Shown here: positions 3,469-7,033 of the stretch, in pieces
Position numbering within the stretch: position 1 is the stretch's first letter
Layout: each line of letters begins with the position of its first letter
Source of the DNA: Candidatus Levyibacteriota bacterium
Lineage (GTDB): Bacteria > Patescibacteriota > Microgenomatia > Levybacterales > UBA12049
Direction of reading: 5' to 3'
Length of the DNA stretch: 64,000 nt
Assembly (NCBI GenBank): GCA_016186625.1
Contig: JACPLG010000003.1
Coordinates: 9,645 to 73,644 of the forward strand
Notes under the pieces: generated by a model
Databases searched by the model: none
What the model saw: the letters and a program-made list of their open reading frames with translations, nothing else
Told to the model about the DNA's origin: nothing
Position numbers and translations under genes: made by a program

Positions 3469-3834
3469 TCAGAATTTTATTGCATTGTTTACTAGTAAAT
3501 AAAACTTATTTTTTTGGCAAAGTGCCTTTACGTATTTAGCATCAGATATTTTTGTCTCTGGTATATCAATATTGAAATAAAGAGCAAAAACTAAATCGTC
3601 AATGTGATCTTTAATGGCTTTCTGTTTTTCTATGTCGATAAGAGGGGTAGTTTTTAGTTCAGATAAAGCAATTTCATTATTTTCAAAGTCTGGTTCTAAT
3701 TCTTTATCCCAGCCGCTTAAAAATTTGCTAACTAGTTCTTTATCTTTTTTTATGGGCAACCTTGTTTCTTTATCCGCTCGTTTAAGAACTAGTTGGCTAT
3801 TGTCAACAATAACTGAGTCAAATTTCTGAGTCAT
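3469..3834 (-). CDS. Hypothetical protein (121 aa) directly downstream of the Type IIG gene; possibly a remnant or accessory of the RM locus
   Basis: ORF track; no motif recognised. Confidence 0.4.
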   Translation of the reverse strand: MTQKFDSVIVDNSQLVLKRADKETRLPIKKDKELVSKFLSGWDKELEPDFENNEIALSELKTTPLIDIEKQKAIKDHIDDLVFALYFNIDIPETKISDAKYVKALCQKNKFYLLVNNAIKF

Positions 3835-3915
3835 AATTCCTGAAAAATCAACTAAATCCGCAAGAGTTTCTTCTTCTAGTTTCAGGAGTTTTACTGCTAG
3901 TTCGACAATTTTACT

Positions 3916-6699
3916 TTAAACTAATAGATTTTCTTTGCTTATTTTTGGTACTCGAACAAATTCTTTTACTGAGGTTGTAGATACTAATAAGTCTTTTTCA
4001 TTTTCGCTTTTAAGAAATGAATCCAACATCATGCGAGTTGTATTTGAGTTAAGAAGTGCAAAAATATAAATAATTTCGTTTTCATTTTCTGTTCCAATAG
4101 CACAAACTTGATTTCTTGCCCACACTACTGGAAGGGAAGTAAAGTGAAATTTTTTTGGATTTGCGTATGACCAGATTATTTTGTATTTACTATCGAGTAA
4201 ACTAAATCCTTGATTTGCTTGTCTAAGTCTAATTCTATAAGCGGAATTTCCTTCCCTAATATTCGGCCAGTAACCCCTGTTTTCTTTAATTGTCCAAAAT
4301 CTATGATTCAATTTGGGATAGTAATAATACTCACCACTGTCGGGAGGGGTGTTGAGTCTTCTTTTTTCATCGATACTGTAACCGCTGTCAAAATAAAACT
4401 TACTATTGAAATTTAACTTCGCAAGTTGATGGTTGTAATAAATAGAAATATCAGCAGAATTGTTTTTATATTTTTCTAGGAGTTCAACAAACCCACTCTT
4501 CTTAGTAATAAAATTCCAGTTCTTAACATTCACTAATAAATTCTGCTGGGTAACCTTCTTTTTATCGACATGTTTACCTTTTCTAATATTTTCTAAACAT
4601 TTTTCAACATCATCATCTGGATTCTTGTAATTAACAACCTCAATAGAATTTGAAGCTGAAGCTATTTTTCTTTGTGCAACAAAAATCAGGCTTGAAGTGG
4701 CTACTGGTTTATTTTGTTTTAAACCTCGTCCTATAAACATTTTTCCACTGAAAACTATAATTTTTTCTATGGTGGTAAATTTTGCTAAGTGATATCGTAT
4801 TACGTCCAAATCACCTGCGGTTAATATGGTTTGGGGAATGATATAGCAGATTTTTCCGTTATCCTTGAGCAAAGCTAAACCTAGGGCAATAAAAAAAGCA
4901 TATAAATTCGGATTCGGTCTATATCTTTTAGTATTATCAGGTGTGCTGTGAAGATTTACACCATAAATGTTATTTAATTTTGCATTACCTTCTTTCATTA
5001 GTTTAAACATGAGCATACCCTGTTTAGAGCTTTTGTTGTAAGAAACATAAGGCGGGTTTCCAATAACAAAATCAAAACGTCTTCGAGGTATGTCTGGAAG
5101 GTTTTCCAGACTTTGTTTCATTTCTTTCAAATCATCTTCGTCACGAACATAGCTTTGATATCCAAGGTTGAGTTTGTCTGTAAACATAGACATTTGTCCT
5201 GCAGAGTGACCAGCTTTTTCGTATTCAACGTTCATATCGCTAAGCGTATTTCTAATTGCAGTGTCCATAAATTCCGAAACAGAATCCCGAGTTTTGAACA
5301 CCTTTATTTTTTTATCAATTGGGTTGTTGTATTTTTGATTTATGATTAATGGAAGAAGACGCATTAAGACACTCATTTCAGCAAGATAAAGCGGGAATTC
5401 CTCTATGTCTAAACCGAAAATGTTATTTGCAACCGCTTCTTCAATTTTCTTAGAGGATTCCTCTGTAAAACCATCTTTAAAAGCTTGAACAATTATATCT
5501 GTTGCAGCGTATAAGAAAGTACCACTGCCGCAAGCAGGGTCTATTAACGAAATGCTATCTTTATCAAACTCATATCTTTTCTTAATCCATTCAGGGGTAT
5601 AACTGATTTGTTCGAGCATGAAGTTTACTACCGCAGGATCGGTGAAATATTGTCCTTTCTGGCTTTCCTCATAAAGCTCTTTGAGGTAGTTCTCGTAAAT
5701 GAAACCAAATATTTCGTTTCTGACATTAGCGAAGTTGTATTTTTTGATGAAGACAAAGATATCAAGCCAAGGGGAAACTTCATTAAGATTGTTTTTCAAA
5801 CTTCGAAGTAGTTCAAAGATTTTGGTGTTTATAAACTCCTGTTCTTTGTAGAAAGGCCGATAAATATTTTTAGATATCGTGTTAGAAATTCCATTTATAA
5901 CCCCCAAAATATCTTTATAAGCATTTTTTTTAAGGCTTTGGTGGATTGTATCAACTAGTTCTTCAAATTCTTGAGGAAAATCGTCAAACTCATTATCAAC
6001 TAAAGTTTTATAGAGGATAAATTGGATAATATAGGCGTAGGTTAATTCAACTGCTCGTTGTTCCTTGCTTTTATCTTCGGTGGATTCCAAATATCCTTCT
6101 ATGTGCAGTTTGTTTTTGAAACTTAGAATAAGTTTAGTAATATCTTCGAAAAACGCCTGACGTTGTTCCTCTACTGGAAGAATAATCTCTTCTATTAAAG
6201 CAAGTTGTACAGTTTTTTCGAAAAAAGACAGGTAATAAAGATCTGGTTTAATATATTCTTTCCAGAAGGTTAAAAAAAGCTGGGTATTATCAAATATGGT
6301 CTCAAGGGTATAAGTTTTATAGACGTTGTTATTGTAGAAACGCCAACTAAAACCATCAGTTAAAATTCCATATTGTTTTTCGAAGTCTTTTTGGTAGTTA
6401 ACAAGTTGGGTTTCACCGGCTTTAATATTCTGATAGCATTCTACTTCTACTGGAATTGCAATTTCGGTATTTATAAATATATAGAAATCAGCCCTACGTC
6501 GTTCTTTTGCATTCTTTTCTTGAATAAATTCGTAATTCCTAGAGGTTGATCTTGTGGACAATCTCCCCTCTTTAAGATTAAATAATTCTCTGCTTGAGAG
6601 TATATCCCTAACAAAGCTTTGGACACCTGATCCTACTTCATGAGTCTTATAATGATCTTTTTCTTTTTTCCATTTATTTTTTATTTCGGAAATTGTCAT
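3916..6699 (-). CDS. Type IIG/IIL restriction-modification fusion enzyme (MmeI-like): N-terminal PD-(D/E)xK-like nuclease region, gamma-class N6-adenine methyltransferase, C-terminal target-recognition domain
   Basis: 927 aa (MmeI is 919 aa). AdoMet motif I LIDPACGSGTFLYAA lies upstream of motif IV FDFVIGNPPYVSY, the gamma-class order. The N-terminal ADFYIF...PVEVECYQ resembles the MmeI D...ExK nuclease core but with E-V-E in place of E-x-K. Confidence 0.8.
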   Translation of the reverse strand: MTISEIKNKWKKEKDHYKTHEVGSGVQSFVRDILSSRELFNLKEGRLSTRSTSRNYEFIQEKNAKERRRADFYIFINTEIAIPVEVECYQNIKAGETQLVNYQKDFEKQYGILTDGFSWRFYNNNVYKTYTLETIFDNTQLFLTFWKEYIKPDLYYLSFFEKTVQLALIEEIILPVEEQRQAFFEDITKLILSFKNKLHIEGYLESTEDKSKEQRAVELTYAYIIQFILYKTLVDNEFDDFPQEFEELVDTIHQSLKKNAYKDILGVINGISNTISKNIYRPFYKEQEFINTKIFELLRSLKNNLNEVSPWLDIFVFIKKYNFANVRNEIFGFIYENYLKELYEESQKGQYFTDPAVVNFMLEQISYTPEWIKKRYEFDKDSISLIDPACGSGTFLYAATDIIVQAFKDGFTEESSKKIEEAVANNIFGLDIEEFPLYLAEMSVLMRLLPLIINQKYNNPIDKKIKVFKTRDSVSEFMDTAIRNTLSDMNVEYEKAGHSAGQMSMFTDKLNLGYQSYVRDEDDLKEMKQSLENLPDIPRRRFDFVIGNPPYVSYNKSSKQGMLMFKLMKEGNAKLNNIYGVNLHSTPDNTKRYRPNPNLYAFFIALGLALLKDNGKICYIIPQTILTAGDLDVIRYHLAKFTTIEKIIVFSGKMFIGRGLKQNKPVATSSLIFVAQRKIASASNSIEVVNYKNPDDDVEKCLENIRKGKHVDKKKVTQQNLLVNVKNWNFITKKSGFVELLEKYKNNSADISIYYNHQLAKLNFNSKFYFDSGYSIDEKRRLNTPPDSGEYYYYPKLNHRFWTIKENRGYWPNIREGNSAYRIRLRQANQGFSLLDSKYKIIWSYANPKKFHFTSLPVVWARNQVCAIGTENENEIIYIFALLNSNTTRMMLDSFLKSENEKDLLVSTTSVKEFVRVPKISKENLLV

Positions 6700-6739
6700 T
6701 TTGTGGGATTATAGTACGATTGTAGCAAAAAAGGAAGAT

Positions 6740-7033
6740 TTACGAATCAAAAGACCAGTCTTTATTGTCTTGCGCGACTATTTTCCCAGGAGAACCTTGA
6801 TTAACGTAAATTTCAAAAAAAATCTTTGATGTTTTTTCGTCTGAGGCTTCACCTTTCCCTGCACCGCCTATGCCCATAACTCCAACGCTTATTTTACCTT
6901 CTTTTGTAGTTCTTTTTATTACAGCTATTTCAAATCTAACAATCCCTCTGTCTATGCTGTTATTTCCTTTTCCCTCGTTTATCTGACGAAGAGTCTCTTG
7001 GATAAATTCTTTAAGTTCATTGTTTTCTTCCAT
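6740..7033 (-). CDS. Hypothetical beta-rich small protein (97 aa) immediately upstream of, and probably co-transcribed with, the Type IIG gene
   Basis: ORF track; 41-bp gap to the RM gene; no HTH, so not a classical C-protein. Confidence 0.45.
   Translation of the reverse strand: MEENNELKEFIQETLRQINEGKGNNSIDRGIVRFEIAVIKRTTKEGKISVGVMGIGGAGKGEASDEKTSKIFFEIYVNQGSPGKIVAQDNKDWSFDS

What the first reader, a model, noticed from the sequence alone, without database searches (positions are those of the whole stretch)
3469..7033. MmeI-like Type IIG RM enzyme with a non-canonical nuclease motif and two flanking small ORFs
The 927-aa protein has the full Type IIG architecture: N-terminal endonuclease-like region, then gamma-class N6A methyltransferase (DPACGSG then NPPY), then a target-recognition domain. 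No separate methyltransferase is present. Where MmeI has D...E-x-K, this protein has ADFYIF...PVEVEC, an E-V-E, so cleavage chemistry may be altered or lost. A 97-aa beta-rich ORF upstream, 41 bp away and non-HTH, and a 121-aa ORF downstream are likely co-transcribed and uncharacterised. They may be a controller or anti-restriction element, or remnants of target-recognition-domain shuffling.
Basis: partly seen in the sequence, partly recalled or inferred. Interest (0 to 1): 0.5.

Follow-up and report, generated by a model that had tools for sequence, protein, structure and literature searches.

The report
Interrupted Type IIG restriction-modification gene
The 927-aa and 121-aa ORFs are one ordinary fused restriction-methylation gene cut by a single premature stop codon; its odd Glu-x-Glu nuclease motif is a conserved BamHI-like variant, not decay, and the small upstream ORF is an unrelated neighbour.

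Summary
The ORFs and motifs are present as described. The 121-aa "downstream ORF" is not a gene. It lies in the same frame as the 927-aa ORF, 27 sense codons after one TAA (3916-3918). That TAA replaces a Lys that is invariant in 119/119 homologues, which are all about 1,070 aa. A 99.97%-identical contig from an independent assembly has AAA there and an intact 1,076-aa ORF.

The protein belongs to a large, horizontally spread, solitary Type IIG family: a PD-(D/E)xK nuclease, an Eco57I-type gamma N6A methyltransferase, and a target-recognition domain. The E-V-E motif is real, and E87 sits where the canonical Lys sits. It is conserved family-wide (E in 118/119 and 69/79 relatives). It always occurs with E57, giving a BamHI-like E...D...ExE tetrad, and it switches to Lys in some lineages. 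This points to an alternative active site, not a dead one.

The 97-aa ORF is a divergent Trypco2/Pepco-like small protein with its own promoter-like -10 element. It is absent from 87 other loci that carry the family, so it is not a controller. BREX PglX and MADS are excluded.

Verdict: an ordinary restriction-modification gene, truncated in this assembly, with a mildly interesting catalytic variant.

The parts
3469..6699 (-). One gene for a solitary Type IIG restriction-modification enzyme. The read-through is 1,076 aa. In this assembly it is split into a 927-aa ORF and an in-frame remainder.
   Evidence: Same frame across the stop. More than 120 homologues of 1,045-1,098 aa cover 99-100% of the read-through. 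An intact 1,076-aa allele is present on L012/L109.
3916..3918 (-). Premature TAA at codon 928, where the family has an invariant Lys. AAA to TAA is a single A-to-T change on the coding strand.
   Evidence: K in 119/119 aligned homologues. L012 has A at window position 3918.
3469..3834 (-). The '121-aa ORF'. It starts at Met956 of the same protein and is the C-terminal part of the recognition domain, not an independent gene.
   Evidence: Residue 956 is M or L in 114/119 homologues, and Q958 and K959 are near-invariant. The structure model is confident in this region, pLDDT about 82-97.
6250..6699 (-). N-terminal PD-(D/E)xK nuclease domain, residues 1-150.
6439..6531 (-). Catalytic tetrad E57 (6529-6531), D71 (6487-6489), E85 (6445-6447) and E87 (6439-6441). 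This is a D-x13-E-x-E motif with Glu in place of the canonical Lys.
   Evidence: Near-invariant in 119 close homologues: D71 and E85 119/119, E87 and E57 118/119. E87 aligns to K85 of a canonical Type IIG enzyme. In 79 genome loci position 87 is E in 69 and K in 10. E57 is present in 69/69 of the E type and 2/10 of the K type.
6208..6210 (-). Codon 164 is GTA (Val) here. Two independent assemblies have GGA (Gly), and 100/119 homologues have Gly. This is the second substitution private to this assembly.
4720..5742 (-). Gamma-class N6-adenine methyltransferase domain, about residues 320-660. Motif I DPACGSG is at 5521-5541 and motif IV NPPY at 5047-5058.
   Evidence: Pfam Eco57I 2.7e-21, N6_Mtase 4.1e-18, MmeI_Mtase 3.6e-08. 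Coordinates were checked. M.TaqI aligns across the NPPY region.
3472..4692 (-). C-terminal target-recognition region, about residues 670-1076, interrupted at residue 928.
   Evidence: This is the least conserved part of the family, with column identity 0.45-0.55 against 0.67-0.83 in the methyltransferase. The whole model matches PglX, BpuSI, DrdV, CamA and LlaBIII.
6700..6739 (-). 40-nt spacer holding a promoter-like element, TGCTACAATCGTACTATAATCCC, with TATAAT 8 nt before the ATG of the restriction-modification gene.
   Evidence: The core is identical in L011 ahead of a different Type IIG gene, and in L104 ahead of a RadC gene.
6740..7033 (-). A separate 97-aa gene for a divergent Trypco2/Pepco-like small beta-rich protein with a variable C-terminal tail of about 17 aa.
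   Evidence: Eight close homologues at 69-82% identity. A profile search found 52 relatives, and 21 of 50 scanned match Pfam Trypco2 with best E 5.8e-8. It has its own -10-like TAGAAT 7 nt before the ATG.

Best explanation
Window 3469-6699 (minus strand) is a single gene for a stand-alone Type IIG restriction-modification enzyme of about 1,076 aa. Its layout is an N-terminal PD-(D/E)xK nuclease, a helical spacer, an Eco57I-type gamma-class N6-adenine methyltransferase, and a C-terminal target-recognition domain.

Inferred from characterised relatives (BpuSI, MmeI, DrdV): the intact enzyme would recognise a short asymmetric site through the C-terminal domain. It would methylate an adenine in that site using SAM and cut unmodified foreign DNA at a fixed distance with the N-terminal nuclease.

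The nuclease uses a conserved E57...D71...E85-x-E87 tetrad. Its four residues match in type and order those of BamHI (E77, D94, E111, E113), in place of the usual D...ExK.

In this assembly the gene carries a nonsense substitution, AAA to TAA, at invariant Lys928, and also G164V. An almost identical contig from an independent assembly has the intact gene. The truncation removes 148 well-folded residues of the recognition region. By inference this probably abolishes both activities together, which is harmless for a fused enzyme.

The '121-aa ORF' is simply the remainder of the gene. The 97-aa ORF is an independent Trypco2/Pepco-like gene at the edge of a variable-cargo island. It is not a regulator of the enzyme.
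For: - One frame with a single TAA.
- Homologues of 1,045-1,098 aa cover 99-100% of the read-through.
- Lys in 119/119 at the stop position.
- L012/L109 is 99.97% identical over 6,453 nt. It has only two differences, both inside this gene: K928 is intact and residue 164 is Gly.
- Nuclease fold, methyltransferase families, and whole-chain fold matches to PglX, BpuSI and DrdV.
- E87 occupies the Lys position.
- The tetrad is conserved and co-varies with E57, R54 and R68. K-type members occur as one divergent clade plus two sequences nested among E-type members.
- BamHI and OkrAI use the same four residue types (PMC3025578).
- No conserved neighbour in 84 loci. No BREX or MADS genes nearby.
- The 97-aa family, its contexts and its Trypco2 link.
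Against: - No enzymatic activity, recognition site or methylome data are available.
- The full-length model is only moderate (pLDDT 75.5), with a low-confidence region at residues 455-539.
- The N-terminal link to canonical nucleases rests on sub-threshold Pfam scores, an hhalign probability of 50% and fold matches, not on a significant sequence match.
- Whether the TAA is a real allele or a consensus error in this genome bin cannot be decided without reads.
- The co-variation statistic (Fisher p 1.7e-9) is not corrected for phylogeny.
Confidence: 0.8

Rival explanations
1. The TAA (and G164V) are consensus or assembly errors, or a rare minority variant, in this metagenome-assembled genome. 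In that case the organism really has the intact 1,076-aa gene. This rivals only the 'truncated allele' part of the explanation.
For: The stop-containing product is on record only from the one NCBI genome bin. No other contig encodes it. Two Logan contigs encode the intact protein, and a third partial contig has Gly164. The only two differences in 6.4 kb both fall on conserved residues of this gene.
Against: Substitution errors are uncommon in short-read consensus sequences (general knowledge). Solitary Type IIG genes are often inactivated, and 3 of 80 genome loci of this family are also disrupted: L057, L083 and L084. Two hits on conserved residues of one gene, with none elsewhere, also fits relaxed selection after inactivation.
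Confidence: 0.35
2. The N-terminal domain is a catalytically dead nuclease fold. The protein would then act only as a solitary or PglX-like methyltransferase, with E-x-E being loss of the catalytic Lys.
For: The best whole-chain fold match is BREX PglX (8c45, E 3e-18). K-to-E substitutions in EcoRV and EcoRI, and E113K in BamHI, severely reduce cleavage (PMC3025578). Public annotations call these proteins methyltransferases.
Against: E57, D71, E85 and E87, plus Q98, Y102 and the GILTDG segment, are essentially invariant over about 200 sequences from many phyla. E87 is always accompanied by E57, whereas K-type members mostly lack E57, which indicates a remodelled but selected active site. No BREX partner genes were found in 84 loci. 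NCBIfam PglX scores are 22-35 bits against cut-offs of 400-900. The isolated N-terminal domain matches the nuclease domains of HsdR, BpuSI and DrdV.
Confidence: 0.1
3. The split is functional. The 927-aa protein and a separately translated 121-aa C-terminal fragment would assemble into an active two-piece enzyme, or the truncated protein would act with altered specificity.
For: An ATG (Met956) with an AGGA 3 nt upstream lies 27 codons after the stop. Type IIG and Type IIB systems with separate specificity subunits exist (PMC4081073).
Against: Met956 is simply a conserved internal residue, M or L in 114/119 homologues. The AGGA spacing is too short for a typical ribosome-binding site. The 27 residues between stop and ATG include conserved positions (L939, E942, L946, D951, F952, S953) that would be lost. 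None of the 120 listed database relatives or the 80 genome loci shows this split as a conserved state. The intact allele differs by one base.
Confidence: 0.05

Closest known systems
BpuSI (Type IIG/IIS/IIC, PDB 3s1s) and the Eco57I-type fused restriction-modification enzymes
   Different: About 13-16% sequence identity. BpuSI has PD-x15-ExK (PMC3185434, abstract seen), whereas this family has D-x13-E-x-E. This family is about 200 aa longer and has a conserved 85-residue insert in the methyltransferase (residues 455-539) that the model does not resolve.
MmeI / DrdV (Type IIL single-chain enzymes; DrdV PDB 7lo5)
   Different: No match to MmeI_TRD, MmeI_C or MmeI_hel. MmeI_N matches only below threshold, in 5/13 members. 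From my own knowledge, not verified here, MmeI's motif is D70-x9-E80-x-K82.
BamHI / OkrAI (and BtsCI) catalytic sites
   Same: The catalytic residues are Glu, Asp, Glu and Glu, with Glu at the position where most PD-(D/E)xK enzymes have Lys: BamHI E77, D94, E111, E113 against E57, D71, E85, E87 here (PMC3025578).
BREX PglX (BrxX) methyltransferase (PDB 8c45)
   Same: Best whole-chain fold match, Foldseek E 3.3e-18. The methyltransferase and recognition-domain core is related.
   Different: PglX works with PglZ, BrxC, BrxL and other partners (own knowledge), and none of these is present in the window or in 84 related loci. NCBIfam PglX models score far below their cut-offs. This protein also carries an N-terminal nuclease domain with conserved catalytic residues.
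Trypco2 / Pepco small effector (Pfam PF19631), for the 97-aa ORF
   Same: A small beta-rich protein of about 80-110 aa with a variable charged or proline-containing C-terminal tail. It is linked to PF19631 through intermediates: 21 of 50 relatives match, best E 5.8e-8.
   Different: The window protein itself gives no Pfam match. No trypsin-like or caspase protease is adjacent. Relatives of this branch usually follow a 181-224-aa zinc-ribbon protein (L008, L106), which is absent from the window.

Membership tests
Type IIG (fused R-M-S) restriction-modification enzymes | Endonuclease domain in the same polypeptide as the methyltransferase | tested here: met
Type IIG (fused R-M-S) restriction-modification enzymes | Gamma-class N6-adenine methyltransferase, with motif I (FxGxG-like) before motif IV (NPPY) | tested here: met
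   DPACGSG at residues 387-393 and NPPY at 548-551. Eco57I 76.9 bits (cut-off 25.3) and N6_Mtase 66.2 bits (cut-off 20.4).
Type IIG (fused R-M-S) restriction-modification enzymes | Target-recognition domain in the same uninterrupted chain (or a separate S subunit) | tested here: inconclusive
   Met in the family and in the intact allele L012. In the window sequence the recognition region is cut by TAA at codon 928. No S-subunit gene is nearby.
Type IIG (fused R-M-S) restriction-modification enzymes | SAM-dependent site-specific cleavage and methylation | not testable with these tools
   Needs enzyme assays or methylome data.
MmeI family (sensu Pfam MmeI_N / MmeI_hel / MmeI_Mtase / MmeI_TRD / MmeI_C) | MmeI-type recognition and C-terminal domains, and a D-x9-E-x-K nuclease motif | tested here: not met
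   Only MmeI_Mtase passes (33.3 bits against 27). No MmeI_TRD, MmeI_C or MmeI_hel match at E 0.1 or better. The motif here is D-x13-E-x-E.
BREX PglX methyltransferase | Match to PglX equivalog models, and neighbouring BREX genes (PglZ, BrxC, BrxL and others) | tested here: not met
   NCBIfam PglX models score 22-35 bits against cut-offs of 400-900. No such genes in the window or in the related loci examined.
MADS MAD2 methyltransferase | Match to the MAD2 equivalog and the presence of other mad genes | tested here: not met
   NCBIfam MADS2 scores 49.2 bits against a cut-off of 720. The PADLOC mad2 match at E 3.6e-17 is shared methyltransferase similarity. No mad partners are nearby.
BamHI-type active site (works-like comparison, not family membership) | Glu...Asp...Glu-x-Glu catalytic residues on a PD-(D/E)xK core | tested here: met
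   E57, D71, E85 and E87 are conserved. They lie on strands 57-60 (E57) and 81-86 (E85), just before strand 72-75 (D71) and just after strand 81-86 (E87) of the model. E87 aligns to the canonical Lys. The three-dimensional geometry of the side chains could not be inspected.
Trypco2 / Pepco (97-aa ORF) | Match to PF19631 | tested here: inconclusive
   The window protein has no match at E up to 10. Four close homologues score 15-18 bits against a cut-off of 24.2. 21 of 50 profile-search relatives match, best E 5.8e-8.
Trypco2 / Pepco (97-aa ORF) | Adjacent trypsin-like or caspase-like protease (PMC7159879; bioRxiv 10.1101/2025.11.14.688446) | tested here: not met
   The neighbours are a DUF3800 gene and the restriction-modification gene. 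The nearest protease is a LexA-like S24 gene 3.4 kb downstream.
Controller (C) protein of restriction-modification systems (97-aa ORF) | Small helix-turn-helix DNA-binding protein conserved upstream of the restriction gene | tested here: not met
   No HTH family match. No such ORF lies within about 4-6 kb of the gene in the 87 other distinct loci carrying this enzyme family.

The most novel reading that the evidence does not exclude
The tail-bearing Pepco-like protein, the Type IIG enzyme and the downstream protease-repressor could form a functional trio. The order is the same in the window (S24 LexA-like protease) and in L011 (different Type IIG family, HTH plus M78 protease). In this reading, DNA damage or failed restriction would activate the protease. 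The protease would clip the C-terminal tail of the pre-assembled Pepco-like pore and kill the cell, acting as an abortive-infection back-up. Separately and more plausibly, this enzyme family could be a natural example of Lys/Glu interchange at the last catalytic position of a PD-(D/E)xK nuclease.
Probability: 0.05. Interest if true: 0.6.

Novelty: new member of a known kind. Interest (0 to 1): 0.3.

Why it matters
For annotation, the 927-aa 'SAM-dependent methyltransferase' and the 121-aa ORF should be merged into one interrupted Type IIG restriction-modification gene. The N-terminal nuclease domain of this very widespread family is currently not annotated at all.

For enzymology, the family carries Glu at the canonical Lys position, always together with E57. 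At least three lineages have Lys instead. Single K-to-E or E-to-K swaps cripple EcoRI, EcoRV and BamHI (PMC3025578). This family therefore offers natural pairs of closely related E-type and K-type enzymes, for example L045 (K) and L049 (E) at 75% identity in the N-terminal domain. Such pairs could show which compensating residues allow the interchange.

Cultured hosts carry family members (Brachyspira pilosicoli, B. intermedia, Thermoflexibacter ruber DSM 9560), so the idea is testable. None of this changes how restriction-modification systems are understood.

Tried and rejected
- Stop-codon recoding or programmed read-through of TAA: rejected. A 99.97%-identical contig has AAA, and all 119 homologues have Lys.
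- The 121-aa ORF as an anti-restriction gene, a controller or a recognition-domain-shuffling remnant: rejected.
- Phase variation by repeat slippage: the context TTAGTT[T/A]AAAG is a substitution, not a change in tract length.
- BREX PglX and MADS MAD2: rejected on model scores and missing partner genes.
- Sequence search of the PDB with a full-length homologue found only weak M.TaqI similarity. The N-terminal profile found nothing.
- tblastn against plasmids gave only remote matches to PglX or N6 methylases.
- An exact look-up of the 927-aa product in public assemblies found none.
- A search for a conserved partner gene in 84 loci found none. The largest neighbour cluster covers 6 loci.
- No tRNA gene is in the window to mark an integration site.
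- The terminator and promoter scan is not above the shuffled expectation overall.
- The metagenome scan for the spacer motif found 11 loci. Nine are an unrelated look-alike promoter ahead of a 402-aa gene.
- Alifold of the repeated element at 7926-8012 gave only a 7-bp hairpin with no covariation.
- Contexts of more distant Trypco2-like relatives showed no protease.
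Full report
**What is in the sequence.**
Three minus-strand ORFs are present as described: 97 aa (6740..7033), 927 aa (3916..6699) and 121 aa (3469..3834). The large ORF contains DPACGSG (residues 387-393), then NPPY (548-551), and ADFYIF...PVEVEC (70-88).

The 121-aa ORF, however, is in the same reading frame as the 927-aa ORF. After the TAA at 3916-3918 come 27 sense codons and then the ATG at 3834. 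Translating 3469-6699 gives one 1,076-residue chain with a single internal stop.

**The two large ORFs are one gene.**
A database search with the read-through found more than 120 relatives at 57-72% identity. Nearly all are 1,045-1,098 aa and cover 96-100% of the query (99-100% for most), including the '121-aa' part. The exact 927-aa product is on record only from one NCBI Candidatus Levybacteria genome bin.

In an alignment of 119 homologues, the stop column is Lys in 119/119. The residues on both sides are conserved, for example P918, L939, E942, D951, F952, S953, Q958 and K959.

An independently assembled contig (Logan SRR12113420, L012/L109) is 99.97% identical to window 740-7192. It differs at only two bases, both inside this gene. 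At window position 3918 it gives AAA (Lys928) and an intact 1,076-aa ORF. At 6209 it gives Gly164 where the window has Val. A third partial contig also has Gly164, and 100/119 homologues have Gly.

The 121-aa ORF is therefore the gene's own C-terminus behind a nonsense substitution. Whether the substitution is a real allele or a consensus error cannot be settled without reads. I put about 65% on a real variant. Three of 80 genome copies of this family are also disrupted.

**What the protein is.**
- Methyltransferase: Pfam gives Eco57I at 76.9 bits, N6_Mtase at 66.2 bits and MmeI_Mtase at 33.3 bits, all above their cut-offs.
- Whole chain: an AlphaFold model of the intact allele (pLDDT 75.5) matches PglX (8c45), BpuSI (3s1s), CamA, DrdV (7lo5) and LlaBIII by Foldseek.

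The architecture is that of a fused Type IIG enzyme. It is not an MmeI-family member in the strict sense, because there is no MmeI_TRD, MmeI_C or MmeI_hel match.

It is not BREX PglX or MADS MAD2. The NCBIfam scores are 22-49 bits against cut-offs of 400-900. No partner genes occur in the window or in related loci.

In 84 loci carrying a family member no neighbouring gene is conserved; the largest neighbour cluster covers 6 loci. The gene is therefore a solitary system, sometimes carried on mobile elements with a serine recombinase, Bro-N or HTH_17 gene.

The family is spread across candidate-phyla-radiation lineages, Planctomycetota, Bacteroidota, Proteobacteria, Elusimicrobia, Acidobacteriota and cultured Brachyspira and Thermoflexibacter. 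Some genomes hold two or three paralogues. The recognition region is the least conserved part, as expected if specificities differ. Type IIG enzymes are reported as the commonest restriction-modification subtype in groundwater prokaryotes (PMC12259885).

**The nuclease motif.**
Alignment by eye and hhalign against a canonical Type IIG enzyme (L011: E..D..E-A-K..Q..ILTD) both place window E85 on the Glu and E87 on the Lys. The hhalign probability is only 50%, but it agrees with the Pfam and fold evidence.

This is not decay. D71, P83 and E85 are invariant, and E87 and E57 are 118/119, in the close homologues. So are Q98, Y102 and the GILTDG segment.

In 79 more distant genome copies, position 87 is Glu in 69 and Lys in 10. 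Glu87 is accompanied by Glu57 in 69/69. Lys87 is accompanied by Glu57 in only 2/10, with parallel changes at R54 and R68. Fisher's test gives p 1.7e-9, not corrected for phylogeny. Eight K-type sequences form one divergent group. Two others (L024, L045) are each closest to E-type sequences, so the position has switched at least three times.

The resulting E57...D71...E85-x-E87 set has the same four residue types, in the same order, as BamHI (E77, D94, E111, E113) and OkrAI. As of 2010 only BamHI isoschizomers and BtsCI were known to carry Glu at the last position, and single K/E swaps cripple BamHI, EcoRV and EcoRI (PMC3025578).

My inference is that the E-type enzymes are active nucleases with a BamHI-like, more acidic metal site. 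This has not been tested.

**Consequence of the stop (inferred).**
The truncation removes residues 929-1076. In the model these form a confident beta-sheet and helices (pLDDT about 82-97) belonging to the recognition region. Loss of recognition would remove restriction and modification together, which is not harmful to the host. A two-piece enzyme is unlikely. Met956 is just a conserved internal residue, the 27 intervening conserved residues would be lost, and no relative shows this split as a conserved state.

**The 97-aa ORF.**
It is a real conserved gene. Eight close homologues have 69-82% identity and align from residue 1. The C-terminal tail of about 17 aa is present only in the two 97-aa versions.

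It has no HTH. Four close homologues give sub-threshold Trypco2 matches. A profile search of 1.8 billion representatives found 52 relatives, and 21 of 50 scanned match Pfam Trypco2, best E 5.8e-8.

Trypco2, also called Pepco, was defined as a partner of trypsin-like proteases (PMC7159879). It was recently reported to be a pre-assembled beta-barrel pore toxin that is activated when its C-terminal tail is cleaved off (bioRxiv 10.1101/2025.11.14.688446).

No such protease is adjacent here. In relatives the gene usually follows a 181-224-aa zinc-ribbon protein (L008, L106; 28% identity to each other, E 2e-21). That partner is absent from the window.

No Trypco2-like ORF lies near any of the 87 other distinct loci of this enzyme family. 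It is therefore not a conserved partner or a controller.

**Local context.**
DNA homology between the window and L011 covers three things: the small ORF, its own -10-like box 7-8 nt before the ATG, and the whole 40-nt spacer. The spacer core, TGCTACAATCGTACTATAATCCC, has TATAAT 8 nt before the ATG of the restriction-modification gene. The downstream Type IIG genes nevertheless belong to different families, with 23% identity in the methyltransferase only.

The same spacer precedes a RadC gene in L104. L104 is syntenic with the window at 739-1023, 6700-6741, 7926-8012 and 9950-10167. Between the conserved flanks it carries RadC, a MazG-like gene and a Schlafen-type helicase. The window carries the Type IIG gene, a LexA-like S24 gene, an HNH gene, an SNase gene and a HEPN-like gene in that position.

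The region 1-8000 also has lower GC, 0.30-0.35 against about 0.38-0.43 beyond. The restriction-modification gene is therefore the first gene of a variable-cargo island behind a conserved promoter. It probably has its own leaderless-type promoter and may not depend on co-transcription with the 97-aa ORF.

**Verdict.**
This is an ordinary solitary Type IIG restriction-modification gene, interrupted in this assembly. It belongs to a widespread, uncharacterised family whose BamHI-like E-x-E catalytic variant is conserved and interchanges with Lys. The flanking 'small ORFs' are explained: one is the gene's own tail, and the other is an unrelated Trypco2-like neighbour. Interest is modest, at 0.3.

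Noticed in passing
window 7169-7240 (+), with a promoter-like site at 7130-7157 (+); DUF3800 gene at 7240-7863 (-): There is a strong Rfam match to DUF3800-IX RNA (RF02968): 60.3 bits against a gathering score of 36.8, E 1e-10. It lies on the strand opposite the DUF3800 gene and abuts that gene's stop codon. The best sigma-70-like promoter in the region (TTGACT-16-TG-TATAAT, 11/12) sits 12 nt upstream of the RNA. Eleven unrelated RNA motifs are known to accompany DUF3800 genes, and their function is unknown (PMC5737381).
   Followed up: partly
window 1-8000, compared with L104 (Ga0155812_103): This is a low-GC island (0.30-0.35 against about 0.38-0.43). Its flanks at window 739-1023 and 6700-6741 are conserved in a related genome. 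That genome carries different conflict-type cargo in between (RadC-JAB, MazG-like, Schlafen-group-3 helicase). The window carries the Type IIG gene, a LexA-like S24 gene, an HNH gene, an SNase gene and a HEPN-like gene there. The Logan contig L012 ends at roughly these island edges, which suggests strain-level heterogeneity.
   Followed up: partly
window 6700-6739 (-), 7041-7046 (-), 7870-7880 (-): All three genes here (Type IIG, 97-aa ORF, DUF3800) have a TATAAT or TAGAAT box only 7-8 nt before the ATG and no Shine-Dalgarno sequence. This suggests leaderless transcripts. The spacer core TGCTACAATCGTACTATAATCCC is identical in three loci, ahead of three different genes.
   Followed up: partly
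window 7926-8012; L104 8581-8656 and 9744-9830: An element of about 85 nt upstream of the DUF3800 gene is 84% conserved and occurs twice in L104. It contains direct repeats (TCTATCTTC, twice) and the inverted repeat ATTCTAC-N6-GTAGAAT. The words GTAGAAT and ACCGTC recur just upstream of the 97-aa ORF. This may be an operator or promoter. There is no Rfam match and no covariation.
   Followed up: partly
L008 5456-6001; L106 4239-4913: Relatives of the 97-aa protein are usually preceded, with overlapping or near-abutting genes, by a 181-224-aa protein containing a zinc ribbon. That protein matches no Pfam family, and the two examples are 28% identical (E 2e-21). This looks like an uncharacterised two-gene module. 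The partner is missing from the window.
   Followed up: partly
window 2679-3332 (-) and L011 3180-4313: In both loci where the tail-bearing 97-aa version occurs, the Type IIG gene is followed by a repressor-protease gene: LexA-like S24 in the window, and HTH_3 plus Peptidase_M78 in L011. The tail-less 78-84-aa versions lie in other contexts (next to LigD/Ku, or next to GmrSD and an EcoRI-type methylase).
   Followed up: no
residues 455-539 of the enzyme (window about 5083-5337, -): There is an insert of about 85 residues between methyltransferase motifs I-III and NPPY. It is well conserved in the family (Y457, N458, N459, K463, K464, D472, S473, Q502, Y514, R519, D523 and others are invariant). 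AlphaFold nevertheless predicts it with pLDDT below 50.
   Followed up: no
L055, L056, L074 (one Bacteroidales genome bin); L020 and L031; L057 and L066: Several genomes carry two or three paralogues of this Type IIG family at about 50% identity. Many of the contigs are only 3-7 kb and are almost filled by the gene. This is consistent with multi-copy or mobile genes that break assemblies.
   Followed up: no
window 1022-2676 (-): Downstream of the LexA-like gene is a run of small nuclease-type genes on the same strand: HNH (96 aa), a staphylococcal-nuclease-like gene (95 aa), a weakly HEPN-like gene (197 aa) and a 128-aa ORF with no family match. They may form one operon with the restriction-modification gene.
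   Followed up: no
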